Assembly: GCA_963809485.1 (NCBI GenBank)
Contig: CAWEJX010000006.1
Span: 96,001 to 160,000, forward strand
Source: an uncultured Acidobacteriota bacterium
GTDB taxonomy: Bacteria > Acidobacteriota > UBA6911
Reading direction: 5' to 3'
DNA: 64,000 bases
Below, in pieces: positions 51,913-64,000 of the stretch. How positions within the stretch are numbered: position 1 is the first letter of the stretch; each line of letters begins with the position of its first letter. The notes beneath the pieces were generated by a model, which was given only the letters and a program-made list of their open reading frames with translations, searched no databases and was not told the origin of the DNA. A program made the position numbers and the translations under genes.

Positions 51913-53832
51913 CTACGCTTTGGATTCAAGCAGGGTCGCTGTCCCCGCGGGTTGTTTCTGAAGGGTGTATGCAGGCACTTTGATCACTGCACTGAACTTT
52001 TCCGGGCAGGCCGAGAAGCATGCGCCGCACTTAATGCATTTTTCCTGGATAATCGTGAAAACCTTGTCCTCGGATTTGTCCACGGCGTTCACCGGGCAGT
52101 TCCGCAGGCAGGCGCCGCAGGCTTCGCATTTTTCCTGGTCGATCAGGTAGGCGATGAGCGCGGAGCAGACTCCGGCGGAGCAGCGTTTCTCTTTGATGTG
52201 CTCCTCGTATTCCTGGCGGAAATATTTCAGGGTGCTTTGAACCGGGAAGGGAGCGGACTGCCCCAAAGCGCAAAGAGAGGCGGCTTCCATAAACTCGGAG
52301 AGTTCCTCAAGCAGTTCGAGATCTCCGTCCTTCCCCTGGCCGGAGGTGATGTTGTTGAGGATGGTGAGCATCTGCCGAAGCCCCTCGCGGCAGGGGATGC
52401 ACTTCCCGCACGATTCATGAGCGAGGAAATTGGTGTAATAGCGCGCCGTGTCCACCATGCAGGTGTTTTCATCCATAACGATCATTCCGCCGGACCCCAT
52501 CATCGAGCCGACTTTGGTGAGTTCGTCGAAATCGACCGGCAGATCGAGCAGGGATTCAGGAATAACTCCGCCCGAGGGCCCGCCGGTCTGCACCGCCTTG
52601 AATTTCTTTCCCTTGGGCACTCCGCCGCCAATCTTAAAGATGATGTCGCGCAGGGTGATGCCCATGGGCACTTCCACGAGGCCGGTATTTTTAACTTTGC
52701 CGACCAGTGAAAATATCTTGGTTCCCTTGCTTCCCTCGGTCCCCATGCTGCCGAACCACGCGGCGCCCCGGTTTATGATGTGGGGAACGTTGGCCCAGGT
52801 CTCGACATTGTTCAGGCACGAAGGCTTGCCCCAGATGCCTTTTTCGGACGTATGGATGTATTTAGGGCGGGGTTCGCCGACATGCCCCTCGATGGCGCTC
52901 ATCAGAGCGCTGGATTCTCCGGACACGAAGGCGCCCGCGCCGCGGTGTATCTTTACGTCGAAGGAAAAGCCGGACCCGAGGATGTTCTTGCCCAGCAGGC
53001 CGTATTCCCGCGCCTGGTCCAGGGCCTTCACGGCATGCTTGCGCGCAAGCGGGTATTCCTGGCGCACGTAGATGAAGCCTTCCGAAGCGCCGATTGCATA
53101 GGCGCCCAGGATCAGGCCTTCCAGGACGCTGTGCGGATTGCCTTCGAGGATGCTGCGGTCCATGTAGGCGCCGGGATCCCCTTCGTCGGCATTGACGATG
53201 ACGTATTTGGGCTCGCCGTGCGCGTTGCGGGTTGTTTCCCATTTTCTGCCGGCCGGGAATCCACCGCCGCCGCGGCCGCGCAGGTTGGCGGCTTTGACCT
53301 CGTTGAGCACGGCTTCGGGCGTCATGCCGGTAAGAGCTTTGGCCAGGGCGGAATACCCTCCGACGGCGATGTAGTCCAGAATGCTGGAAGGATCGATCCG
53401 CACGTTGTTTTCGAGCAGAATCCTTTTCTGATACTTGTAGAACGGGATCTCGTCGAGATGCGCAAGGCGCTTGCCGCTTTCGTCGTCGAGGTACAGAAGG
53501 CGATCGACGGCCCCACTGCCGGCAACCAGATTGTCGATGATTGCGGGCACGTTCTTGGGCTGGGCTCCGAGGTAGCAGGCGTCCGAAGGCTGAATCACTA
53601 CCAGGGGGCCGCGTTCGCAGAATCCGTGACACCCGGTCCGGCGGACGCCAACCTGATTGCCGATTCCGCGCTTCTCGATCTCCTCTTCGAGAGAATCGGC
53701 AAGGATATCGGCTCCATAGGCGCGGCAGCCGGTTCCCGAGCAGACTGCCAGCCAGGTTTGCCTGCCGGTGCGCTGTGCTTTGATTTCTTCCCTGAGCCTT
53801 TCCAGATCCGCTGCGGTTTCTATGCGAGACAT
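51913..53832 (-). CDS. BamH/HydB-like flavin subunit (full-length NuoF with N-terminal 2Fe-2S and C-terminal 2[4Fe-4S])
   Basis: CSGTGC..GCHGFC, NADEGDPGAYMDR, GAGAFVSGESS, SCGKCIPCR, CEACGAC..CP, CIKCGAC..CP. Confidence 0.92.
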   Translation of the reverse strand: MSRIETAADLERLREEIKAQRTGRQTWLAVCSGTGCRAYGADILADSLEEEIEKRGIGNQVGVRRTGCHGFCERGPLVVIQPSDACYLGAQPKNVPAIIDNLVAGSGAVDRLLYLDDESGKRLAHLDEIPFYKYQKRILLENNVRIDPSSILDYIAVGGYSALAKALTGMTPEAVLNEVKAANLRGRGGGGFPAGRKWETTRNAHGEPKYVIVNADEGDPGAYMDRSILEGNPHSVLEGLILGAYAIGASEGFIYVRQEYPLARKHAVKALDQAREYGLLGKNILGSGFSFDVKIHRGAGAFVSGESSALMSAIEGHVGEPRPKYIHTSEKGIWGKPSCLNNVETWANVPHIINRGAAWFGSMGTEGSKGTKIFSLVGKVKNTGLVEVPMGITLRDIIFKIGGGVPKGKKFKAVQTGGPSGGVIPESLLDLPVDFDELTKVGSMMGSGGMIVMDENTCMVDTARYYTNFLAHESCGKCIPCREGLRQMLTILNNITSGQGKDGDLELLEELSEFMEAASLCALGQSAPFPVQSTLKYFRQEYEEHIKEKRCSAGVCSALIAYLIDQEKCEACGACLRNCPVNAVDKSEDKVFTIIQEKCIKCGACFSACPEKFSAVIKVPAYTLQKQPAGTATLLESKA

Positions 53833-54938
53833 TCTTGCGCCTCCTCTTTCTCCAGTGACTTGACGATTTTCTCGAGTTTGCTGCGCGACGGATCATGGTG
53901 GTACTGGGCGTCGATCTGAACCACCGGCGCCAGGGCGCAACACCCCAGGCAGTGGACGGTCTCGAGAGTGAATTCCTGCCGGCTGTCGGTCTGGCCCGGT
54001 TGAATGCCAAGCAAGGCTGAAACACGGATCAGCGTCTCCGATGCCCCGCGCACGTGACAGGCCGTCCCTGTGCAGACCTGGATGGTATGACGGCCGCGCG
54101 GTTCGAGGCTGAAGGCTTCGTAGAAGTTGGCGATTATGTAGATTTCCCGGAGGGGGATGTTGAGCCTGCCCGAGATCCAGCTGAGGATGTGGCGCGGCAG
54201 CCACCGGAAACGTTCCTGAACATCCAGAAGCACCTGGATGAGAGCGTTCTTCTGGAAATCATATTTGCGCATGATTGTGTCCGCGGCCAGCAGCTCATCG
54301 CGTATATCCAGTATTGCCCGCTCTTTCTTTTTGATCTGGCCCAGGCTTGCGGCATGATACTTGGCTTCGCTCTCGAGGTAAGCGAGTTCATCGAGCAGCT
54401 GCCGTTTTTCCATGCCCATTGAATAGGCTCCCCCAAGAACATCCAAGCCCTGCAGCAGCAGGTCGTACTTGTCGGATGCATGAGGCTCCGTCCCGGCGCC
54501 CGATTTCGATGCACTGGCCTCCTTGCGCAGGATGCTGAGGCTCAAGGCCCGGCGCACAGTCTCCAGAAGCTTTTCAGGATCGATGGGTTTGGTCAGAAAA
54601 TCGAAGGCTCCGAGTTTCATGGACTCGACAGCGGAATCCACCGTGGCGTGACCGGTGACGACGATCGGCACGGCTGTCGGCTCCGCTTTCACGATCAGGC
54701 CAAGCAGTTCGAGGCCGGGCAGGCCCGAAATTTTGAGATCGAGTAGCACCACCCCGGGGTGTGCCGAGCCCGCCATTTGAATACCCAGAGGCCCGTTGTT
54801 GGCCACGGCGGTCCGGTATCCGCCTCTCTCGAGAGTCTGACTGCAGGCCTCAGTGAAAATCTCTTCATCATCTATTATGAGTATGTCGAGCGGAGGTTTC
54901 ACAGGCCGCTCTTGATCAATTTTTTTATTTGCATCCAT
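53820..54938 (-). CDS. response-regulator receiver domain fused to a NuoE/BamG (2Fe-2S) subunit
   Basis: IIDDE, LLDLK, VTGH, TKP receiver motifs, then WLP, NFYEAFSL, CTGTAC, CLGCCALAP. Confidence 0.9.
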   Translation of the reverse strand: MDANKKIDQERPVKPPLDILIIDDEEIFTEACSQTLERGGYRTAVANNGPLGIQMAGSAHPGVVLLDLKISGLPGLELLGLIVKAEPTAVPIVVTGHATVDSAVESMKLGAFDFLTKPIDPEKLLETVRRALSLSILRKEASASKSGAGTEPHASDKYDLLLQGLDVLGGAYSMGMEKRQLLDELAYLESEAKYHAASLGQIKKKERAILDIRDELLAADTIMRKYDFQKNALIQVLLDVQERFRWLPRHILSWISGRLNIPLREIYIIANFYEAFSLEPRGRHTIQVCTGTACHVRGASETLIRVSALLGIQPGQTDSRQEFTLETVHCLGCCALAPVVQIDAQYHHDPSRSKLEKIVKSLEKEEAQECLA

Positions 54939-55037
54939 AGGCAACCTCAAGGTTAGACAAGACGCTATTTCTTTGATTGCGCGAGGCGAAGTTTATTCAA
55001 CCATATCGCCAGGCGGCAAATTCGCCCCTGCTATATT

Positions 55038-55054: not shown

Positions 55055-55486
55055 TATCCGAAATCTTGTTTTTAGAGCTTGTGTTAATCTTTGTAATATA
55101 TTGAGAATAAAATACATATCTTCTTAAGAAATCCTCCACGAAAGGCCTAATTTTTCTGTTCCAATTTCACAACTGGCACTTTTTGTACCATTGCCCGGTT
55201 TTTGCGATTCGGATTGTTTTGAACTGCCTGGTTATCAGGCAAGCCGCAGCTTTCGGCCTGCGGCCAGGGAAAAATTGTCGAAGGATCTGCAGAGTCGTTT
55301 CTGCCGGAGAGGCTTTACATTTTGTTAAAAAAAACTTGACAAATATGTTAAGTCGCACAAAAATGCCATCAACTAATCCATTGATAGATGTGCAGTTCAT
55401 TGTTCCTATGGATTTCGGGGTATTCGCCCGGCCTGGAGCACATAAATCAATTTATGATTTAATCATTTTTCTTTTGCCAAGGGCCT

Positions 55487-55813
55487 ATGACATACAACCA
55501 GCGTGTGCTTTTGAAGGAACTGGATGCATTGATCGCCAACACCCCTAGCATTCATCTGTCGGAAATTGCGCGCACGCTTGGGGTTGACCGACACACAATC
55601 GAAAATGCCATGCGTAACACGCGGCACACTTCTTTTCGCGAATACCGGCGCACGGAACTGCTGCATATGGCCCGAGTGATGCTGGATCGGCCGAACATAT
55701 CGGTGAAGGAAGTGGGAATCAGGTTGGGATACTCATCGCCGGCATCCTTCTCGCGTTTTGTGCAGCAATCCACCGGTAAAAGTCCAAGCCAACTCAGGAA
55801 ATACGAGCTATAA
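55487..55813 (+). CDS. stand-alone AraC-family HTH regulator
   Basis: LSEIARTLGV, SFREYRR, SVKEVGIRLGYSSPASFSRF...GKSPSQLR. Confidence 0.85.
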   Translation: MTYNQRVLLKELDALIANTPSIHLSEIARTLGVDRHTIENAMRNTRHTSFREYRRTELLHMARVMLDRPNISVKEVGIRLGYSSPASFSRFVQQSTGKSPSQLRKYEL

Positions 55814-56079: not shown

Positions 56080-56324
56080 TGATTCTATTGGTAAACTCCC
56101 GGCTCTGCCGGGGGACTCATAGAGTTTGACAGCTCCGTATTTTGAAACGCTGAGATACGCTGAAAAAAGCGCTGGCAAACGCCGATTTGTTCGGCGAGGG
56201 TTGGCGAGCAAAGGCCTCATCGGCTTTTGCCCGCGTAGGTCAGCGTTCAAGACCATCGTAACACCTACAACCGCTTTGAGCGGTTCCAATCCTTCAAGCC
56301 TCCGGCTTTGCCGGAGGTGCCTGA
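56080..56324 (+). mobile_element. non-autonomous palindromic element with IS200/IS605-like ends, copy 5
   Basis: Same ends; the internal hairpin is collapsed to GCAAAGGCCTCATCGGCTTTTGC. Confidence 0.75.
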
Positions 56325-56539
56325 TTGGCCAATTCTGCAAAATAATTTCACATTTAGCTAAATGATAGGCTATAATGCGCCTCTTATGCTTAGTATTTAG
56401 CCTGAAAGATAATTAAATGCTCTTGAATCTATTTTGCCGTCTGGCAATATTTTTGGTCGGTAAGGATTAAAAATGTTTAAGACTTGCCGCCGAAGGCTTG
56501 GGTTGGAAGGACGAGTGGAGGGGCTCTCCTTCATAGGGC

Positions 56540-56768
56540 TCGGATTCGGAGGCGCGTCAGGAAATTTCAATTCAGGAGACAGGGAATTCCATGAAGCGGG
56601 AAGGCTCGTCCAATCTCCCGCACATTTATCCATTCCTGGCACACGCCAGTTATGTCATTTGGTTGAAGTTGAAGAAGCAGAAGAATTCGGAATCGCGGGC
56701 ATCATTGAACCTGGCGAATGCAAGCCTGTGGTTTCTTCCTAAGTCAGATCAAGGGAGGAAGTTCTGTT
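56540..56768 (+). ncRNA. candidate structured cis-regulatory leader of TonB receptor 1
   Basis: Hairpin blocks shared with the leader of receptor 2, with covariation; TATAAT at 56371. Confidence 0.5.
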
Positions 56769-59700
56769 ATGAATAAGTATCTAGTCGGGGCGGTTCTTTT
56801 GTGCCTTATGCTTACCGCGCCGGCGTTCAGTCAAAGCAACTCCAGCCTGAGCGGAACGGTTGCGGATGCCACCGGCGGTGTGCTGCCCGGTGTAGCCGTC
56901 ACGGCGACAAACAACGCGACGGGAGTCGCGACGCCTACCGTAACCAACGCAGCGGGCGTGTACAATTTCGCCAGCCTCCCGCCGGGAACCTACAAGGTCA
57001 CCGCGGAGCTGGCCGGTTTCCAGACGCAGACCTTCACGGACGTCCAGCTCAGGGCGGCCACCCAGGTCCGCCTGAATTTCACCCTGCAGGTGCGAAAATT
57101 GGAGCAGCAGGTTGAAGTGTCCATCTCAACGGAAAGACTTTTGCTGGAATCGAGTTCGTCGGTAGGACTGGCTCTTCCGGAAAAGACCGTGAACGAGCTG
57201 CCCCTGGTCAACAACAACGTGCTCGACCTCATCAAAGTCATGGGCGGAACAGTGCTGACGGACCAGAATCCCGTATTTGCCGCAGATACGACGGTTATGG
57301 CGGGCGTATCGGCCGGGAACATCAACCTGCAGCGCGATGGCGTGACGGTGAACGACGTCCGGTATTCGACCGGACTGAATTCGCCCCTGCGCCTCAACAA
57401 CGAAATGGTCGGCGAATTCAAGGTACTCCTTTCGCCTGTGGACGCCGAAGTTGGCCGAGGTGCCGGTCAGGTGCAGATCCTGTCGAAATCGGGCGGCAAC
57501 GCCTATCACGGCGGGGTGGTCTGGAGCGTCCAGAACTCGGCCCTGGACTCCAACGAGTATCACTACAACCGGACCGGGACGCAGCCCAACTGGCGCAACA
57601 TGAACGAATACACGGCCAGTGTCGGCGGCCCGATCATCAAGAACAAGACTTTTTTCTTCGTGATGTGGAACCAGCAGATCTCGCGGCAGCGCCAGAATGT
57701 CAACCCGATCGTTCTGACGCCGTGTGCCCGGAAAGGCATTTTCCGTTGGTATGACAACTGGATGAGCACCAACATCCTGGGTTCGGAAAGCACCACCGGC
57801 ATCACACCGACGCGCAGAGCCGTCGATGCCGAGGGCAATCCGATCGCGCCTGCGACAAATCCCGACGGGACAGCTTTCACGGGCAGGCTACACCATGGGT
57901 ATGTATTCGGCCAGCTGCTCAAGGAGCCCACGACCAACGACTGCTCCGATTTCAATGCGGCCACGGATGTAATACCGGGAACTCCGTACGATTTTTACCG
58001 GACTGGGCTCGACACCACCGGGTTCGTCTCGCGGTTCACCGAAATCATGCCGGTGACTAACAACTACGAGGTTGGCGACGGCCTGAATACCGGCGGCCAC
58101 AAGTGGCTGCTGCGGCTCAAAGGCGGGGACAACATTTTGGGTCTGGGCGAGGACAACCTGCGCAAGCAGATCAACGTCAAGGTCGACCACAATTTCAACG
58201 ACCGGCACCGCATCAGCGGGAGCTTTTCGTATGAGAAGTCGACGGCCGACGACAGCTTCCCGTCCTGGCCGAACGGCTACGGCGGATTTATTCAGCGGAA
58301 ACCGAAGTATGTTTCCGTACAGTTGACTTCCACGCTGAAGCCAACGCTGCTCAACGAATTCCGGTTCGGGATGTCGCGCACCGACAGTATGACCTACGAC
58401 GCCATTTTCAATCCGACGACGGGGTCCGACATGGTGGCTCTGATGCAGAGTCTCTATGACACCGACACATACCTGGCCGGCTCCGCCTACAAGGGGCTGC
58501 CCCTGCACGTCAACCCGGGCTCCGGGAACATGGGTTTCCACACCGATGTATTCAGCACCTTTGCATTTTTCAGCGGCACCCCTCAGAGCAACCCGGTAGG
58601 CAGCCGCGGCAACCTGCCTGTGCCGTTCGGCGGCTATGATCCGCGGTGGACTTACTCGGACACGCTCACGTGGACGAACGGAAGGCATTCGTTCAAATGG
58701 GGCGGCGAGCTGCGCATGTCCAAGTCCTACCAGGACCGGCAGGGCACGGGGCGGTTCTTCAATGACGCCAACGTATACACTTCGGTTGTCGGCGGCTCCA
58801 CTTCAAACTCCCAGATTTATGGAATCAGCGGCTTTGCCCCGGGATTGACCGGGCTGATAGGGTTCGCTCCCTATTTTGGCAGCTCGAACAGCATGGCGAA
58901 CCTCCTGAACTACTTCTCGGGATCGGTTGCCAATCTTCGCAACTACGTATATGTCAACTCCCCGACGGCGTTGAACTGGAGCGACTTCACCAAGGGCGAG
59001 CAAAACCAGATCTTCGACATCCGAATGAAGGAATGGGACATTTTCTTCAAGGACGACTGGAAGGTTACGGATGATCTCACTTTGAACCTTGGGGTACGCT
59101 ACGAATACTATGGCGTGCCTTATGTAGAGTCAGGTATGGCAGTCGGCCTCGAGGGCGGGCCCTCCTCGATATTCGGAATATCGGGAGGCGGTTTCGACAA
59201 CTGGCTGAGCGGAAATATCGACTCCACGGGTTCGCTGACGAAACAGACCTTCGTCGGGCCGAATTCGCCGAATCCGAGCCAGCAGGTCTACAAGGACGAC
59301 TGGAACAACATCGGACCGGCGGTGGGTTTTGCCTGGCAGCTTCCCTGGGGTGGAAAGGGCAAGACCACCCTGCGCGGCGGCTACCAGATCAGCTACATGC
59401 CGATCTCGCGCGCGGACGGCTTCGCGAACGTTATCGCGAATACCATCGGCACGAGCTACACCAACGTCTACAGCGGGGACAGCAGCACGCCTTACATGAA
59501 CTTTGCGATGCTGCCGAACCTGGTGCCGACCCAGATTCCCTCCGATGCGGTACCTCTTCAGATGATTCCGATCACGCAGAGAACCCAGGCTTACACCGTG
59601 TATGACGACAATCTGCGGAATCCGTATGTACAGAACCTGACGCTGGCCTTGGTGCGCAACATCGGATCCAACCTGACGGTGGACATGCGCTATATCGGTA

Positions 59701-61007
59701 CGCTGACGCGGAAATCGACCGGTACAGTGGCGCTGAACTCCGCCAATTTCGTGAACAACGGGCTTCTGGACGCGTTCAACGCAGCGCGCAGAGGCGGCGA
59801 TTCCCCGTTGCTGGACCAGATTTTCAACGGGATCAACTATGCCGGAACAGGTTATGGCCCGGTGGGAACCATTTACAACGGCGTTCTTCAGACTGGCGCC
59901 ATGCACCTTCGTGCATCCGGCAATACCAACTCCAACCTCGCCAACGGTAACTTTGCCGCACTGGCCGGAACTATGGCTACGGCGAACTACGTCACAACCA
60001 ACCCCGGTAACGAAGGTCTGCCCTTCGTTCCGAGCGGTGTCAATGGCTCCATTCTCCGATACAACGGTTTTCCGGAGAACTTTATATATACCAACCCGCA
60101 GTTCGCGACCGCGGACATGATAGGGAACCTGGCTTACAACAACTATCACGGCATGCAGGCCCAGGTGACCTTGCGCCCGACCCATGGCTTCAGCCTGGTG
60201 GGTACTTACACCTGGAGCCGGAACCTGGGGCTCCTCGCCAGCGGCTATACCAATCCGCTCGACAGGGCGGCGGACTACTCGCTGGTGAACGGTCACCGTT
60301 CGCACCAGCTGGTCACCTACGGCACGTTTGACCTGCCGTTTGGCCAGGGCCGGTCGCTGTTCAAGGACGTCAATCGGGCTGTGGATGCCTTCATCGGCGG
60401 CTGGCAGATGACGTGGATTTTCAACTATGCCAGTGGAAGCCCGAACAGCATCACGGCATCCACTACGTCGCTTTACAGCAATGCAATCCCGGACTTTGTC
60501 GGGCCGGAAGGCTCGTTCGACAACAAGATGGGACATGTAACGTGGGAGCCCGGTGCGGACAAGGGGAATTACTTCGACAACCGGTATGTGAAAATCAAGG
60601 ATCCGCAATGTGCGAATGTGACAACCGCACAAGGCCTGCAGAATGTCTGTACGATGCAGGCGCTGGCGCTTGCATCCGATGAGAGCGTAATCGTGTTCCA
60701 GAATGCAGCTCCTGGAACGCGGGGCAACTTTGGCCGGATGAATGTGACCAACCTGGGACGGTGGACGCTGGATGCAGCCATGGGCAAATCGTTCAGGGTT
60801 GCGGAAGGCAAGAGCTTCACGGTCCGGGTGGACGCCACGAACATATTCAACCATCCTATGCCATCGCTGGGCTACACGACGGTCAGCAGCCGGTCGGCCA
60901 TTGCAGCCAACCCGGATATGACTCTCAGTGGGACCAACGATTTCGGTTTACTGGATAACAAGGTCGGGACGCGTACCTTCCAGGCCAAGCTCCGCTTCGA
61001 CTTCTAG
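56769..61007 (+). CDS. TonB-dependent receptor with carboxypeptidase regulatory-like domain (Oar-like, acidobacterial type)
   Basis: Signal peptide, LSGTVAD..GGVLPG, TNAAGVYNF, GGPIIKNKTFFF, KDDWKV..LTLNLGVRYEY, C-terminal LRFDF. Confidence 0.93.
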   Translation: MNKYLVGAVLLCLMLTAPAFSQSNSSLSGTVADATGGVLPGVAVTATNNATGVATPTVTNAAGVYNFASLPPGTYKVTAELAGFQTQTFTDVQLRAATQVRLNFTLQVRKLEQQVEVSISTERLLLESSSSVGLALPEKTVNELPLVNNNVLDLIKVMGGTVLTDQNPVFAADTTVMAGVSAGNINLQRDGVTVNDVRYSTGLNSPLRLNNEMVGEFKVLLSPVDAEVGRGAGQVQILSKSGGNAYHGGVVWSVQNSALDSNEYHYNRTGTQPNWRNMNEYTASVGGPIIKNKTFFFVMWNQQISRQRQNVNPIVLTPCARKGIFRWYDNWMSTNILGSESTTGITPTRRAVDAEGNPIAPATNPDGTAFTGRLHHGYVFGQLLKEPTTNDCSDFNAATDVIPGTPYDFYRTGLDTTGFVSRFTEIMPVTNNYEVGDGLNTGGHKWLLRLKGGDNILGLGEDNLRKQINVKVDHNFNDRHRISGSFSYEKSTADDSFPSWPNGYGGFIQRKPKYVSVQLTSTLKPTLLNEFRFGMSRTDSMTYDAIFNPTTGSDMVALMQSLYDTDTYLAGSAYKGLPLHVNPGSGNMGFHTDVFSTFAFFSGTPQSNPVGSRGNLPVPFGGYDPRWTYSDTLTWTNGRHSFKWGGELRMSKSYQDRQGTGRFFNDANVYTSVVGGSTSNSQIYGISGFAPGLTGLIGFAPYFGSSNSMANLLNYFSGSVANLRNYVYVNSPTALNWSDFTKGEQNQIFDIRMKEWDIFFKDDWKVTDDLTLNLGVRYEYYGVPYVESGMAVGLEGGPSSIFGISGGGFDNWLSGNIDSTGSLTKQTFVGPNSPNPSQQVYKDDWNNIGPAVGFAWQLPWGGKGKTTLRGGYQISYMPISRADGFANVIANTIGTSYTNVYSGDSSTPYMNFAMLPNLVPTQIPSDAVPLQMIPITQRTQAYTVYDDNLRNPYVQNLTLALVRNIGSNLTVDMRYIGTLTRKSTGTVALNSANFVNNGLLDAFNAARRGGDSPLLDQIFNGINYAGTGYGPVGTIYNGVLQTGAMHLRASGNTNSNLANGNFAALAGTMATANYVTTNPGNEGLPFVPSGVNGSILRYNGFPENFIYTNPQFATADMIGNLAYNNYHGMQAQVTLRPTHGFSLVGTYTWSRNLGLLASGYTNPLDRAADYSLVNGHRSHQLVTYGTFDLPFGQGRSLFKDVNRAVDAFIGGWQMTWIFNYASGSPNSITASTTSLYSNAIPDFVGPEGSFDNKMGHVTWEPGADKGNYFDNRYVKIKDPQCANVTTAQGLQNVCTMQALALASDESVIVFQNAAPGTRGNFGRMNVTNLGRWTLDAAMGKSFRVAEGKSFTVRVDATNIFNHPMPSLGYTTVSSRSAIAANPDMTLSGTNDFGLLDNKVGTRTFQAKLRFDF

Positions 61008-61032
61008 TTCGGACGGAATAGCCTGCTAACCG

Positions 61033-61073
61033 GAAAAACTCCCCCATGCGGTTCGGGGGAGTTTTTCTTTTTT
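61033..61073 (+). terminator. intrinsic terminator
   Basis: GAAAAACTCCCCC/GGGGGAGTTTTTC stem followed by a T-tract. Confidence 0.88.
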
Positions 61074-61131
61074 GGGCGAACAAATATTCCAGGAATTGCC
61101 TGCACGGAAAAACTGAAAGGCGAAATGACCT

Positions 61132-61157
61132 CACGCGGAGGCGCGGAGAGCGCGGAG
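61132..61157 (+). repeat. CGCGGAG short repeat cluster
   Basis: CACGCGGAGGCGCGGAGAGCGCGGAG, a REP-like intergenic motif. Confidence 0.45.
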
Positions 61158-61464
61158 TCCCGAAATGATATCTTCACGAACTTCCCGTCTCGGCGTGAAA
61201 CAGGCGGATCCCGGCTGTCTATAAATTCTTATCTCCGAAATTTGCGCAACCGGTGACCGAAAATCACAGGATCTTCCATAACTGCAATACATTTCTCCAT
61301 TTGGCAAATCGATTAACCTTACTTCGATGCAAATGCCCGCGCATTAATGATATAATGCATCTCTGGGCTTAGCCCATATCTCTCAGAATTTACCCATTGC
61401 TATTACTGTTGACGCTGCTGCTGATAATGGTAGTTTGCTGGCAGTGACCCACACTCACCTCGCT

Positions 61465-61690
61465 CCCATGGAAGCGCGCTGATTCGGCTTGAAATAACGG
61501 GGAATCCCACAAAGCGGGAACAACTTGCGATCTATCCCGCATCCGGTCTGATTTCCTCCCGGCCGCAGAGCAGGCAAGCCGGCCCGCGTCCGGGAAAGCC
61601 ATGAAGGGACGACCAGTCCGCGGGCCCTGTTTACCTGGCGAACAAAAGCCTGCGGCATCTTTCTTCACTGCAACAGGAGGGAATGCCGTT
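61465..61690 (+). ncRNA. candidate structured cis-regulatory leader of TonB receptor 2
   Basis: Same motif order as 56540-56768; TGaTATAAT at 61348-61356. Confidence 0.5.
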
Positions 61691-64000
61691 ATGAAGAAGT
61701 TTCTGATCCTGGCGGTAATGCTCGCTCCCCTTGTTCTCGCAACCCAGGCATTGGGCCAAGCCAATGCTACCCTCAGCGGGACCATTCAGGATGCTACGCA
61801 GGCGGTGTTGCCTGGCGTGACTGTTACGGCAACGAACAACGAAACGGGCGTCAGCAGGACGGCGGTGAGCAATGCTGCTGGAGTATATAACTTTCCCGGC
61901 CTTCAGGTCGGAACCTACAAGGTAAGCGCGGAAATGTCCGGTTTCCAGACACATACGTTTACGGACGTCATCGTCGGGAATGCCGCGCAGGTCCGGCTGA
62001 ATTTCACTCTCCAGGTCCGCAAACTTGAGCAGCAGATTGAGGTTTCCGTCGCGTCCGACAGGCTGCTGCTGGAATCGAGCTCATCGGTCGGCACTGTGCT
62101 TCCCGAAAAGCAGGTGATCGACCTTCCCCTGGTCAACAACAACGTGCTCGACCTTATGAAAGTGATGGGCGGCACCGTAATGACCACTGACGAGATATGG
62201 AACGCAGACGCCACAACCTTTGCAGGCATTAACGCCAGCAACGTAAACCTGCAGCGGGACGGCGTCACGGTCAACGACCTGCGCTGGAACAACGGACTGG
62301 CTTCCAACGTGCGCCTCAATCCCGACCTCATCGGCGAATTCAAGATGGTCCTTGCACCTGTCGACGCGGAAATGGGGCGAGGTGCCGGACAACTGCAACT
62401 GATAACAAAGTCGGGAGCTAATGCCTACCACGGCGCCCTGGTGTGGAACCTCCAGAATACCAAATTGGATTCCAACCAGTGGTGGAACAACCGTCAAGGC
62501 ATTATTCCTGACTGGAGAAACCTCAACGAATGGACGGCGAGCGTCGGCGGCCCGATCGTCAAGAACAAAACGTTCTTTTTCGGGCTCTATGACGGCCAGT
62601 CGGCAAAGCTGAGAAGGTCCGCTAACCGGGTCGTGCTGACCCCCTGTGCGCGGAAAGGCATTTTCCGCTATTTTGATTATTGGGGCAACGGCAACAGGCT
62701 GCAGGAAACAGTTGTGCCCGGCGGATTTGGGACCCCTTACACAACCGTGATTGACGCCAACGGCAACCCGATGATGCCGACCACCAAGCCCGACGGCACT
62801 GCTTTCGACGGCCAGCTTCGCATCGCGCATGCATTCGGCCAGATTGTCCCGGGCTCCGTGGCCGCCAACGATTGTTCCGATTACGATCCTGCCACGGACC
62901 TGATACCGTTCACCGCGTGGGATGCGCTTCGGAGCACGTGGGATACGACCGGCAATGTCAGTCAGTTCCTGACATACGTACCCCAGCCGAACAACTGGGA
63001 TGCCGGCGACGGATTGAACACCGCCGGCTATCGGTATACCGAGCATCTCAACAGCGCGGACAGTGTGTATGGCATCGGCGAGGATCCCCAACGCCAGCAA
63101 TTCACTGTGCGGATCGATCACAACTTCAATCCCAACCACAGGATCAGCGGGATCTGGACCTACGAGTCGGACTGGGCGGACGACAACTTCAAGACCTTGC
63201 CGGAATACTGGGGAGGCCGGTTGGAACGGAAGCCTCAGACCTATTCGGTCAACCTCACATCCACGCTGAAACCAACCCTTCTCAATGAAGCCCGATTCGG
63301 ACTCTCGATTGTGAACACCAACACCTATAATGCCTATGGCAACCCTGAGAACGATGCGAACGAGCTCCTGTCCAAGTTTCCCGTAATCAATGGCACGCCC
63401 GTTATATGGGGTCCGGGACAGGGAGGCGTGACCGGCCGTGTAGATCTCGGCGCTAACCACACCAACCCGTTCGGCAGCAGGGGCAACCTGCCCTATAACT
63501 TCGGCGGCATCGATCACCGGTGGGTGGTCGGCGACACGGTTACATGGACGAAAAACAGGCATTCGTTCAAATGGGGTGGAGAAGTCCGCCTCGGGAGTTC
63601 CGATCAAACGACTGATGGCGGCATGCTGGGATTCTTCAGCGGCGCAGCTTTCAGCTACCCCTACGCAATGGGCGGCTCCACTCAACTGGCCCCGAATTCG
63701 GGAGTGTGGTTCAGCCCGTTCCTTCCCAACATAGCCGGCTACTCTACCTCGCTTTTTGGAGGGGCCGGAAATGTGGCGACCATGGAGAATCTCATAAACT
63801 ATCTCTCCGGTTCGCTGAGCGGGATATCCCAATTCCTGTTTGTCAATTCTCCCAACCAGACGTCCTACAACAATCCCGCCACAGACGACAAATACATGAG
63901 GCGCAAATTCATCATCAATGAGTTTGACCTCTTTGTTAAGGATGACTGGAAAGCCACCGACAACCTCACTCTCAACCTCGGACTGCGCTTCGAATATTAT
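61691..64000 (+). CDS. second TonB-dependent receptor, paralog of 56769..61007 (3'-truncated by window edge; absent from the ORF track)
   Basis: GGAGG RBS; MKKFLILAVMLAPLVLATQALGQANATLSGTIQD..., LLLESSSSVG, LPLVNNNVLDL, LTPCARKGIFR; co-linear with receptor 1. Confidence 0.92.
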   Translation, partial: MKKFLILAVMLAPLVLATQALGQANATLSGTIQDATQAVLPGVTVTATNNETGVSRTAVSNAAGVYNFPGLQVGTYKVSAEMSGFQTHTFTDVIVGNAAQVRLNFTLQVRKLEQQIEVSVASDRLLLESSSSVGTVLPEKQVIDLPLVNNNVLDLMKVMGGTVMTTDEIWNADATTFAGINASNVNLQRDGVTVNDLRWNNGLASNVRLNPDLIGEFKMVLAPVDAEMGRGAGQLQLITKSGANAYHGALVWNLQNTKLDSNQWWNNRQGIIPDWRNLNEWTASVGGPIVKNKTFFFGLYDGQSAKLRRSANRVVLTPCARKGIFRYFDYWGNGNRLQETVVPGGFGTPYTTVIDANGNPMMPTTKPDGTAFDGQLRIAHAFGQIVPGSVAANDCSDYDPATDLIPFTAWDALRSTWDTTGNVSQFLTYVPQPNNWDAGDGLNTAGYRYTEHLNSADSVYGIGEDPQRQQFTVRIDHNFNPNHRISGIWTYESDWADDNFKTLPEYWGGRLERKPQTYSVNLTSTLKPTLLNEARFGLSIVNTNTYNAYGNPENDANELLSKFPVINGTPVIWGPGQGGVTGRVDLGANHTNPFGSRGNLPYNFGGIDHRWVVGDTVTWTKNRHSFKWGGEVRLGSSDQTTDGGMLGFFSGAAFSYPYAMGGSTQLAPNSGVWFSPFLPNIAGYSTSLFGGAGNVATMENLINYLSGSLSGISQFLFVNSPNQTSYNNPATDDKYMRRKFIINEFDLFVKDDWKATDNLTLNLGLRFEYY

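What the first reader, a model, noticed from the sequence alone, without database searches (positions are those of the whole stretch)
56540..61690. Shared, covarying RNA leader with an SD-sequestering hairpin upstream of both TonB-dependent receptors
Seen: both 330-390 nt leaders, otherwise diverged, keep the same ordered blocks. These are TATAATGC..CTCT..GCTTAG; GGA(G/A)GCGCG; GGGAAT(T/C)CCA..AAGCGGGAA-variable loop-TCCCGCA (56582-56622; 61500-61541); then CGCGGGC...GCCTG(T/C)G enclosing an inner stem that covaries (CATT/AATG versus TGTT/AACA) around an invariant ACCTGGCG loop (56694-56731; 61618-61655); and a pyrimidine tract able to pair with the SD (TTCTTCCT:GGGAGGAA; TCTTTCTT:AGGAGGGA) just before GTTATG. 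Inference: a conserved translational cis-regulatory RNA (riboswitch, protein- or sRNA-binding leader) for an acidobacterial receptor family. The GGGAA/CCCGCA/ACCTG pieces faintly recall cobalamin riboswitches, but the B12 box is not recognisable.
Basis: partly seen in the sequence, partly recalled or inferred. Interest (0 to 1): 0.78.

Follow-up and report, generated by a model that had tools for sequence, protein, structure and literature searches.

The report
Conserved leader RNA before acidobacterial receptors
Two neighbouring outer-membrane receptor genes share a long upstream leader whose core, a small RNA hairpin with a nearly fixed seven-base loop, recurs in related species of one uncultured acidobacterial genus, so it is probably an undescribed regulatory RNA whose signal is still unknown.

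Summary
No Rfam 15 family matches either leader, or two related leaders, even at E<=10.

The leader is not just a leftover of duplication. A covariance model finds the same hairpin-plus-SD region 14 times in 12 of 30 genomes of the genus, always before one receptor subfamily. It finds none in 21 genomes of other genera of the family.

The core is a 4-6 bp hairpin with loop ACCUGGC, starting 49-60 nt before the ATG (16 leaders). Its 3' arm changes A to G, keeping U-G pairs, so it folds in the sense RNA.

In 11 relatives a junction-like fold is 92.8% paired, against 39-55% for slid controls.

Not supported:
- SD sequestration as a family trait.
- A cobalamin relationship.
- An RNA role for the TATAATGC block, which more likely belongs to the promoter/operator of a conserved small AraC-type gene upstream.

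The outer CGCGGGC stem and a 5'-block-to-start-codon pairing occur only in G000 and G006.

Verdict: a real, undescribed, genus-restricted cis-acting leader RNA. Its partner or ligand is unknown.

The parts
55487..55813 (+). Small single-domain AraC/XylS-type HTH gene (108 aa). It sits upstream of the receptor on the same strand and is conserved there in 6 loci.
   Evidence: Pfam HTH_18 1e-16 and HTH_AraC. Orthologues lie upstream of A', L066, L076, L093 and L082.
56090..56328 (.). Copy of a MITE-like repeat carrying CCGGC..GCCGG hairpins, inserted between the AraC gene and the promoter of receptor A. It is not part of the motif. Boundaries are judged by eye.
   Evidence: 558 hairpin matches on both strands in G000. 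Many metagenome contigs match only 56269-56324, with unrelated flanks.
56371..56419 (+). Probably DNA-level: either a -10 box or tandem operator repeats upstream of the -35.
   Evidence: TTCACA-18-TATAAT scores 11 of 12. The repeats align with CCAAAATGTAAAC-type repeats upstream of the promoter in relatives. Reading them as repeats is inference.
56423..56451 (+). Second candidate promoter, TTGAAT-17-AATATT. It aligns with TTGNNN-17/18-CATAGT in relatives.
   Evidence: 10 of 11 related leaders with upstream sequence have the CATAGT form (L066 does not); A has this variant. No transcription start data exist.
56576..56602 (+). 5' block GAGACAGGGAAUUCC plus hairpin P2 (UUCC 56587-56590 with GGAA 56599-56602).
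   Evidence: P2 is 93.5% paired in 11 relatives.
56596..56621 (+). Alternative hairpin GCGGGA/UCCCGC. It overlaps the P2 3' arm and is specific to G000 and G006.
   Evidence: A' has GCUGG/CCAGU (read by eye). It is absent from the other leaders.
56694..56730 (+). P4 of leader A: outer stem CGCGGGC/GCCUGUG (G000/G006 only), inner stem CAUU/AAUG, and loop holding ACCUGGC (56709-56715).
56733..56771 (+). Pyrimidine tract UUCUUCCU (56733-40), SD GGGAGGAA (56753-60), CUGUUAU (56764-70) and the ATG at 56769.
   Evidence: Minimum-energy fold. SD pairing is not above shuffles. Long-range pairing to the 5' block is -12.5 kcal/mol, against -7.3 +/- 2.0 for shuffles.
56769..61007 (+). Receptor A, 1412 aa: CarboxypepD_reg domain plus OMP_b-brl_4/TonB-type barrel.
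61351..61372 (+).
   Evidence: It is not kept in B' (GATACAAAATGGATCCGGGCTTATC).
61409..61436 (+). Candidate promoter TTGACG-16-TAGTTT of leader B, read by eye. B' has TTGATG-16-TAGTCT.
   Evidence: Sequence. The consensus scan found no site in this region.
61494..61519 (+). 5' block AUAACGGGGAAUCCC plus hairpin P2 (UCCC 61505-08 with GGGA 61516-19). AUAACGG is complementary to CCGUUAU at the start codon.
61514..61540 (+). Alternative hairpin GCGGGA/UCCCGC of leader B.
61619..61654 (+). P4 of leader B: outer stem CGCGGGC/GCCUGCG, inner stem UGUUU/GAACA, loop ACCUGGC (61633-61639).
61659..61693 (+). Pyrimidine tract CUUUCUU, SD AGGAGGGA (61675-82), CCGUUAU (61686-92) and the ATG at 61691.
61691..64000 (+). 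Receptor B. It runs off the window; the full length in the contig is 1433 aa, counted from the ATG.

Best explanation
Both receptor genes carry a lineage-specific, structured 5' leader that acts in cis on the mRNA.

Shown:
- The shared, selected core is a short hairpin (P4) presenting the loop ACCUGGC 49-60 nt upstream of the start codon.
- A second hairpin (P2, UUCC:GGAA inside the GGGRAUUYCC block) lies further 5'.
- In the sister lineages these sit in a larger fold: P1 GCCAA:UUGGC, P2, and a long-range P3 AUCUGCG:CGCAGAU.
- All these elements recur only before one receptor subfamily.

Inferred:
- Transcription is set separately at the DNA level, by a promoter and tandem repeats that are probably bound by the conserved small AraC-type protein encoded upstream.
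- The leader adds post-transcriptional control of translation start or mRNA life.
- My preferred mode is that the P4 loop is the docking site for a trans-acting partner (a small RNA or an RNA-binding protein), which changes ribosome access to the nearby SD.
- In the two window leaders, and in their G006 orthologues only, the 5' block (AUAACGG..UYCC) can also pair with the SD and start codon (GGRA..CYGUUAUG). This gives them a lineage-specific closed state.
For: Blocks and family:
- The blocks are real and exceed chance.
- No Rfam family matches.
- Model R2 finds 14 true instances in 12 of 30 genomes of the genus, each directly before a receptor of one subfamily or, in one case, cut by a contig end. 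It finds 0 in 21 genomes of other genera of the family.
- The receptors carrying it are deeply diverged (56-65% identity over 260 aa) and fall in three supported subclades. The rest of the leader is scrambled by indels. The kept blocks are therefore under selection.

P4 hairpin:
- 16 leaders have the loop: ACCUGGC in 12, UCCUGGC in 2, AUCUGGC in 1, GCCUGGA in 1.
- The 3' arm is GAACGG, GGACGG, GGGCGG or GAGCGG opposite CCGUUU. These U-A to U-G changes pair only in the sense RNA.
- A and B each have one compensatory pair: A-U and U-A in place of G-C and C-G.

Wider fold in 11 relatives:
- 92.8% of 290 cells are paired, against 39-55% for slid partners.
- The covariation score is 0.230, against 0.162 +/- 0.013; 0 of 500 shuffles reach it.

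Other points:
- The 5' block pairs with the translation start region at -12.5 to -15.9 kcal/mol in A, A', B and B'. Shuffles give -6.9 to -8.0 and reach the observed value in <=1% of cases. Pair types at one position are G-C, A-U and G-U.
- No conserved upstream ORF exists.
Against: - No transcription start or expression data exist, and no partner RNA or protein was found.
- One sRNA candidate complementary to P4 is not conserved (0 of 29 genomes).
- A second ACCUGGCGAA before a distant receptor paralogue is not kept in its orthologue.
- SD pairing probability is no higher than with shuffled upstream sequence in 17 of 17 leader sequences scored; none had fewer than 10% of shuffles reaching it.
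- Covariation is shallow: 11-16 related sequences, most P4 pairs never vary, and the fold was derived from the same sequences it was tested on.
- P1, P3 and the SD context differ between the window's leaders and the sister lineages.
- The loop itself changed in A' and B'.
- Many other 24-nt windows of the same leaders pair with the start region at least as well as the 5' block does (6-59 of 246).
Confidence: 0.5

Rival explanations
1. A small-molecule riboswitch. The junction-like domain (P1-P2-P3) together with the P4 loop would form an aptamer for the receptor's substrate or a related metabolite, and would gate translation.
For: - The fold is multi-helix, with conserved unpaired stretches (AAAAAGGGG, GGCUK, AUCNGCG) and a variable insert inside P3.
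- It is associated exclusively with a transporter gene.
- There is possible alternative pairing of UUUCC with either GGAAAU or the SD.
- No known family matches.
Against: - The distribution is genus-restricted and turnover is fast. P1 and P3 are not recognisable in A and B, the P4 loop is altered in A' and B', and P2 is replaced in L145.
- An expression platform is not supported statistically.
- There are no ligand clues from gene context. A and B are monocistronic, and the gene after related receptors has no known family.
Confidence: 0.17
2. A constitutive structural leader, like the ompA 5' UTR. The hairpins would protect an abundant outer-membrane protein mRNA from RNases or tune ribosome loading, and nothing would be sensed.
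For: - The leader is long and sits before an outer-membrane protein gene.
- Its hairpins are conserved mainly as structures plus a few sequence blocks.
- No partner was found.
Against: A near-invariant 7-nt loop sequence is not needed for mere protection. The transcription start is unknown, so a protective 5'-terminal hairpin cannot be assessed.
Confidence: 0.2
3. No RNA function. The shared blocks would be residues of the A/B duplication, gene conversion, or purely DNA-level sites for transcription factors.
For: - A shares some blocks more exactly with B and B' than with its own orthologue A', which hints at conversion or concerted change.
- The TATAATGC block is probably DNA-level.
- GGGAATTCC is palindromic.
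Against: - The same P4 and P2 recur before receptors 56-65% identical to A in 10 other species.
- P4 arm changes keep U-G pairs but break the DNA palindrome.
- In P2, paired extensions such as GG/CC in L192 fit a helix.
Confidence: 0.08

Closest known systems
sRNA-controlled leaders of TonB-dependent receptor mRNAs (ChvR-chvT in Caulobacter; OmrA/B targets in enterobacteria)
   Same: A long 5' UTR of a TonB-dependent receptor mRNA with a recognition site about 60 nt upstream of the start plus the SD region. ChvR pairs at -70..-59 and -20..-10 (PMC6237742, passages read). OmrA/B was seen only as a search listing and abstract.
   Different: No sRNA was found here. The conserved site is a hairpin loop. 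The phylum, the sequence and the receptor type (CarboxypepD_reg N-terminus) all differ.
Cobalamin riboswitch (RF00174) before btuB-type receptors
   Same: A structured leader before a TonB-dependent receptor, with GGGAA- and CCCGC-like pieces.
   Different: No match to RF00174 or AdoCbl-variant even at E<=10. The B12 box is absent and the fold is different.
Orphan cis-regulatory motifs from comparative genomics (Weinberg 2010 and 2017 surveys); Acido-1 and Acido-Lenti-1
   Same: Narrowly distributed candidate structured RNA found by conservation in intergenic regions of little-studied phyla.
   Different: Acido-1 and Acido-Lenti-1 are listed as non-cis-regulatory ncRNAs (PMC2864571, Table 1, passage read), and neither matches here. 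The main text of the 2017 survey holds no 'TonB', 'Acidobacteria' or 'outer membrane'.
ompA 5' UTR stabiliser (recalled)
   Same: Hairpin-rich leader of an outer-membrane protein mRNA close to the ribosome-binding site.
   Different: Unrelated sequence. Here the loop is sequence-conserved and the transcription start is unknown.
MarA/SoxS-type single-domain AraC activators with upstream 'marbox' sites (recalled)
   Same: A 108-aa protein that is only the double-HTH domain, encoded next to its likely target, with tandem repeats just upstream of the -35.
   Different: Binding is untested, and the repeat consensus is my own reading of the sequence.

Membership tests
Cobalamin riboswitch (RF00174 / AdoCbl-variant) | Match to the family covariance model | tested here: not met
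   0 matches at gathering score in the window. No cobalamin-family match at E<=10 in either leader.
Cobalamin riboswitch (RF00174 / AdoCbl-variant) | B12 box and the conserved GGGAA/GGUG..CCCGC core | tested here: not met
   Tested only through the covariance model. By eye no B12 box is present. The box consensus is recalled.
Acido-1 / Acido-Lenti-1 RNAs | Match to RF01686 / RF01687 | tested here: not met
Riboswitch (generic) | Conserved multi-helix aptamer supported by covariation | tested here: inconclusive
   92.8% paired, covariation 0.230 against 0.162 +/- 0.013 in 11 relatives. The set is shallow, and P1 and P3 are not seen in A and B.
Riboswitch (generic) | Expression platform (SD or terminator alternative pairing) | tested here: inconclusive
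   SD pairing is not above shuffled controls in 17 of 17 leader sequences scored. The 5' block pairs with the start region significantly only in the 4 G000/G006 leaders.
Riboswitch (generic) | Ligand binding | not testable with these tools
   Needs in-line probing or ITC.
sRNA-targeted receptor leader (ChvR/chvT-like) | A conserved trans-encoded RNA complementary to the leader site | tested here: inconclusive
   A genome scan for the complement of UUUACCUGGCGAAC gave 4 sites lying in no open frame longer than 108 codons. Only the one with a single mismatch was followed, and it is not conserved in 0 of 29 genomes. The search was not exhaustive.
Single-domain AraC/XylS (MarA/SoxS-like) regulator with a neighbouring target | Double HTH domain only, about 110-130 aa | tested here: met
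   HTH_18 and HTH_AraC in 108 aa. 6 aligned orthologues.
Single-domain AraC/XylS (MarA/SoxS-like) regulator with a neighbouring target | Binds the repeats upstream of the receptor promoter | not testable with these tools
   Needs EMSA or footprinting.

The most novel reading that the evidence does not exclude
The leader is a new, genus-specific riboswitch class. Its pseudoknotted junction (P1-P2-P3, with the crossing helix GGCUK:MAGYY) and the ACCUGGC loop would together sense the still unknown substrate of this large CarboxypepD_reg receptor subfamily. That would give a direct handle on what these very abundant acidobacterial receptors import.
Probability: 0.15. Interest if true: 0.75.

Novelty: new member of a known kind. 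Interest (0 to 1): 0.42.

Why it matters
Acidobacteriota carry dozens of large CarboxypepD_reg-type TonB-dependent receptors whose substrates and regulation are essentially unknown, and this genus has no cultured member named in the records I saw.

A conserved leader RNA paired with a dedicated small AraC-type regulator marks one receptor subfamily as tightly controlled at two levels. It also gives concrete, short sequences (the P4 loop, P2, and the operator repeats) for reporter, pull-down and probing experiments.

If the leader senses a ligand or binds a dedicated sRNA or protein, it would be a first post-transcriptional regulatory element described for these receptors. If it does not, it is still a clean example of a narrowly distributed structured leader of the kind broad surveys miss.

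Tried and rejected
1. Rfam at permissive thresholds on both leaders, two relatives and the upstream repeat gave only snoRNA, miRNA and lncRNA noise.

2. Model R1 (4 sequences, including the outer stem) found only its own 4 training sequences. All 20 weak hits (16 in the genus, 4 in G000) lie in unrelated contexts.

3. A protein-led scan of genome contigs gave 18 loci, of which only 1 (L001, the orthologue of A) has the leader.

Only 4 are true leaders (L156, L192, L214, L216); the other 76 are chance matches.

5. The upstream-ORF (leader peptide) idea fails: no ORF is shared across leaders.

6. SD sequestration as a family trait is not above shuffles.

7. sRNA partner: the complement of the P4 region scanned in G000 gave 4 sites lying in no open frame longer than 108 codons. 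I followed only the single-mismatch one (C6:359753), and it is not conserved in 0 of 29 genomes of the genus.

8. Regulon idea: ACCUGGCGAA 10 nt before the SD of a distant receptor paralogue (C8:336279) reads ACCAGGCGAA in the G006 orthologue and is absent in two others.

9. Expression: no RNA holder is listed. Laying 4 runs gave no start sites. One 151-nt contig of a run labelled RNA-Seq (a guess) covers 56684-56834 with 1 difference, which shows presence only.

10. Gene context for a ligand: A and B stand alone, with convergent genes after B. Related receptors are followed by a 317-335 aa secreted protein with no Pfam family.

Supplementary files of the 2010 and 2017 motif surveys could not be seen and may list motifs that are not in Rfam.

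13. Of the 82 receptor homologues listed, I read upstream DNA for 70. One had no start found and two were cut short. The other 12 were covered only by the whole-genome R2 search.
Full report
**What is in the window.**
- Receptor A (ATG 56769, 1412 aa) and receptor B (ATG 61691, 1433 aa in the contig) both have a CarboxypepD_reg domain followed by an OMP_b-brl_4/TonB-type barrel.
- Each is preceded by several hundred non-coding bases.
- ACCTGGCGAA occurs only at 56709 and 61633 in the 64 kb; 0.18 matches are expected and 1 of 100 shuffles reached 2.
- GGGAATYCCA-N2-3-AAGCGGGAA occurs only at 56582 and 61500; 0 are expected.
- Single-sequence folds give the GCGGGA/UCCCGC hairpin, the CGCGGGC..GCCUGYG hairpin and an SD hairpin in both leaders. 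The overall folding energy is no better than for shuffles (z = -0.13 and -0.33).

**Known families.** Rfam 15 gives nothing at gathering score in the window. At E<=10 on either leader it gives only eukaryotic snoRNA and lncRNA noise. The same holds for two related leaders and for the upstream repeat. The leader is therefore not cobalamin, Acido-1 or Acido-Lenti-1.

**Is it more than a duplication residue?**
- The closest genome, G006, has orthologues of both genes. B' keeps the whole leader at 87% identity. A' matches by BLAST only over the last ~46 nt of the leader plus the coding sequence.
- A' nevertheless keeps the blocks in altered form: GGGAAGUCCCC, a GCUGG/CCAGU hairpin, CGCGGGC..GCCAGCG, and loop GCCUGGA.
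- A first model built from these four leaders found nothing else.
- It did give one local hit in G005, which exposed a wider family.
- A protein search listed 82 homologues in 25 of 30 genomes of the genus. I read upstream DNA for 70 of them.
- A subset has CCGUUU-ACCUGGC-GRRCGG at the same distance from the ATG, plus a GGGGAUUUCC block further 5'.
- Model R2, built from 12 leaders, finds 14 true instances in 12 of 30 genomes of the genus. Two further hits lie inside coding sequence.
- In a sample of 137 genomes of the class, the family outside this genus gave 0 of 21. The only other hits were one false positive and one unexamined weak hit in an unpublished genome.
- A metagenome pattern scan added three new leaders and one duplicate.
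- In a tree of 30 receptor N-termini, the 11 motif-bearing rows form three supported subclades inside one unresolved node. Two changes of state are needed, and one is not excluded.
- These receptors are only 56-65% identical to A, so unconstrained DNA between them would be unalignable. The retained blocks are therefore under selection.

**The RNA elements.**
- P4 is the core. In 16 leaders the loop is ACCUGGC (12), UCCUGGC (2), AUCUGGC (B') or GCCUGGA (A'), and it starts 49-60 nt before the ATG.
- Opposite CCGUUU the 3' arm reads GAACGG, GGACGG, GGGCGG or GAGCGG. These U-A to U-G changes keep the RNA helix on the sense strand but destroy a DNA palindrome.
- A (CAUU/AAUG) and B (UGUUU/GAACA) each add one compensatory pair.
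- On 12 sequences the helix is 79.2% paired, against 36-48% for slid controls.
- P2 is a hairpin made from the UUCC of the GGGRAUUYCC block and a downstream GGAA. It varies in length: 8 bp in L192, 4 bp in A.
- In 11 sister-lineage leaders I could add P1 (GCCAA:UUGGC), a long-range P3 (UCUGCG:CGCAGA, with U-A, U-G and C-G at one position) and CUCU:GGAG at the SD.
- Together, 92.8% of 290 cells are paired, against 39-55% for slid partners. The covariation score is 0.230 against 0.162 +/- 0.013, and 0 of 500 shuffles reach it.
- A further helix, GGCUK:MAGYY, would cross P3 (85.9% paired).
- This fold was derived from the same shallow set it was tested on, so it is a working model.

**What is special to the window's leaders.**
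- The outer stem CGCGGGC/GCCUGYG and the GCGGGA/UCCCGC hairpin exist only in G000 and G006.
- The same is true of a long-range pairing between the 5' block and the translation start region: AUAACGG with CCGUUAU in B, GAGACAG with CUGUUAU in A, and AUAACGG with UUGUUAU in A'.
- One position of that helix shows G-C, A-U and G-U. The energies are -12.5 to -15.9 kcal/mol, against -6.9 to -8.0 for shuffles, which reach the observed value in <=1% of cases.
- This pairing is absent from the other lineages.
- However, 6-59 of 246 other windows in the same leaders bind the start region at least as well.

**What fails.**
- SD sequestration is not a statistically supported family feature.
- There is no shared upstream ORF.
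- No conserved complementary sRNA was found.
- A second ACCUGGCGAA before another receptor is not conserved.
- No expression or start-site data could be obtained.

**The first block is probably DNA-level.**
- A 108-aa AraC-type gene made only of the HTH domain lies upstream on the same strand in A, A', L066, L076, L093 and L082.
- 10 of 11 sister leaders with upstream sequence have TTGNNN-17/18-CATAGT 222-304 nt before the ATG; L066 does not. By my reading, this is preceded by CCAAAATGTAAAC-like repeats.
- A has TTGAAT-17-AATATT (56423-56451) at the aligned place. It also has a stronger consensus match, TTCACA-18-TATAAT (56347-56376).
- Either way, TATAATGC..GCTTAG sits at or upstream of the promoter.

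**Mechanism.** I commit to a cis-acting leader with two layers of control. Transcription runs through the AraC-type protein and its repeats (inferred). Post-transcriptional control runs through the leader, with the P4 loop as the docking site for an sRNA or protein that alters ribosome access (inferred; precedent ChvR-chvT). The rivals are a true riboswitch, a constitutive stabilising leader, and no RNA function.

**Novelty.** Two full-text searches for acidobacterial TonB-receptor leaders or riboswitches, and term look-ups in the 2010 and 2017 motif surveys, found no description of this motif. The surveys' supplementary files could not be seen.

Noticed in passing
window 56090-56328: A copy of a MITE-like repeat with CCCCCGGCTCTGCCGGGGG and CCTCCGGCTTTGCCGGAGG hairpins. 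The hairpin pattern matches 558 times on both strands in G000. Short pieces of it are matched by many soil and sediment metagenome contigs that have unrelated flanks.
   Followed up: partly
window 55487-55813 (+): A 108-aa AraC/XylS-type protein consisting only of the double-HTH domain. It is conserved directly upstream of leader-bearing receptors in 6 loci and is the likely dedicated transcription regulator.
   Followed up: partly
window 53820-54950 (-) and 51913-53832 (-): A response-regulator receiver domain fused to a thioredoxin-like [2Fe-2S] ferredoxin (NuoE-like) domain, next to a NuoF-like FMN/4Fe-4S protein. This is an unusual fusion.
   Followed up: no
L002, L003, L004 (upstream of position 2501 in each): Receptors 55-56% identical to A in other Acidobacteriota MAGs share a different conserved long leader of their own (ACATCTG.., GCAAA.GG, ACGCAGGTGCGTCCGGATGCC, AAGAACGAGGATAA before the ATG).
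   Followed up: no
L272:4381-5334(-), L273:6559-7518(-), L274:276-1280(+), L275:371-1321(+); G000 C17:92554-93393: A conserved 317-335 aa secreted protein with no Pfam family follows the leader-bearing receptors in 4 of 4 relatives checked. The four copies are 38-50% identical to each other. In G000 the homologue lies elsewhere.
   Followed up: partly
window 56434-56456: A terminator-like hairpin, TTGCC-GTCT-GGCAA, followed by TATTTTTGG. It lies inside leader A if the TATAAT promoter is used, and overlaps the spacer of the alternative promoter.
   Followed up: no
L067 and L095 (G012), G000 C7:36943(-): Close receptor paralogues keep parts of the upstream blocks (GGGAAATTCCA, GGGGATTCCA, CCAAAATGTWAA) but lack the P4 hairpin. 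These may be decayed or variant leaders.
   Followed up: partly
window 55183-55548 (+): A 121-aa ORF with no Pfam family that overlaps the start of the AraC-type gene in another frame. It may not be a gene.
   Followed up: no
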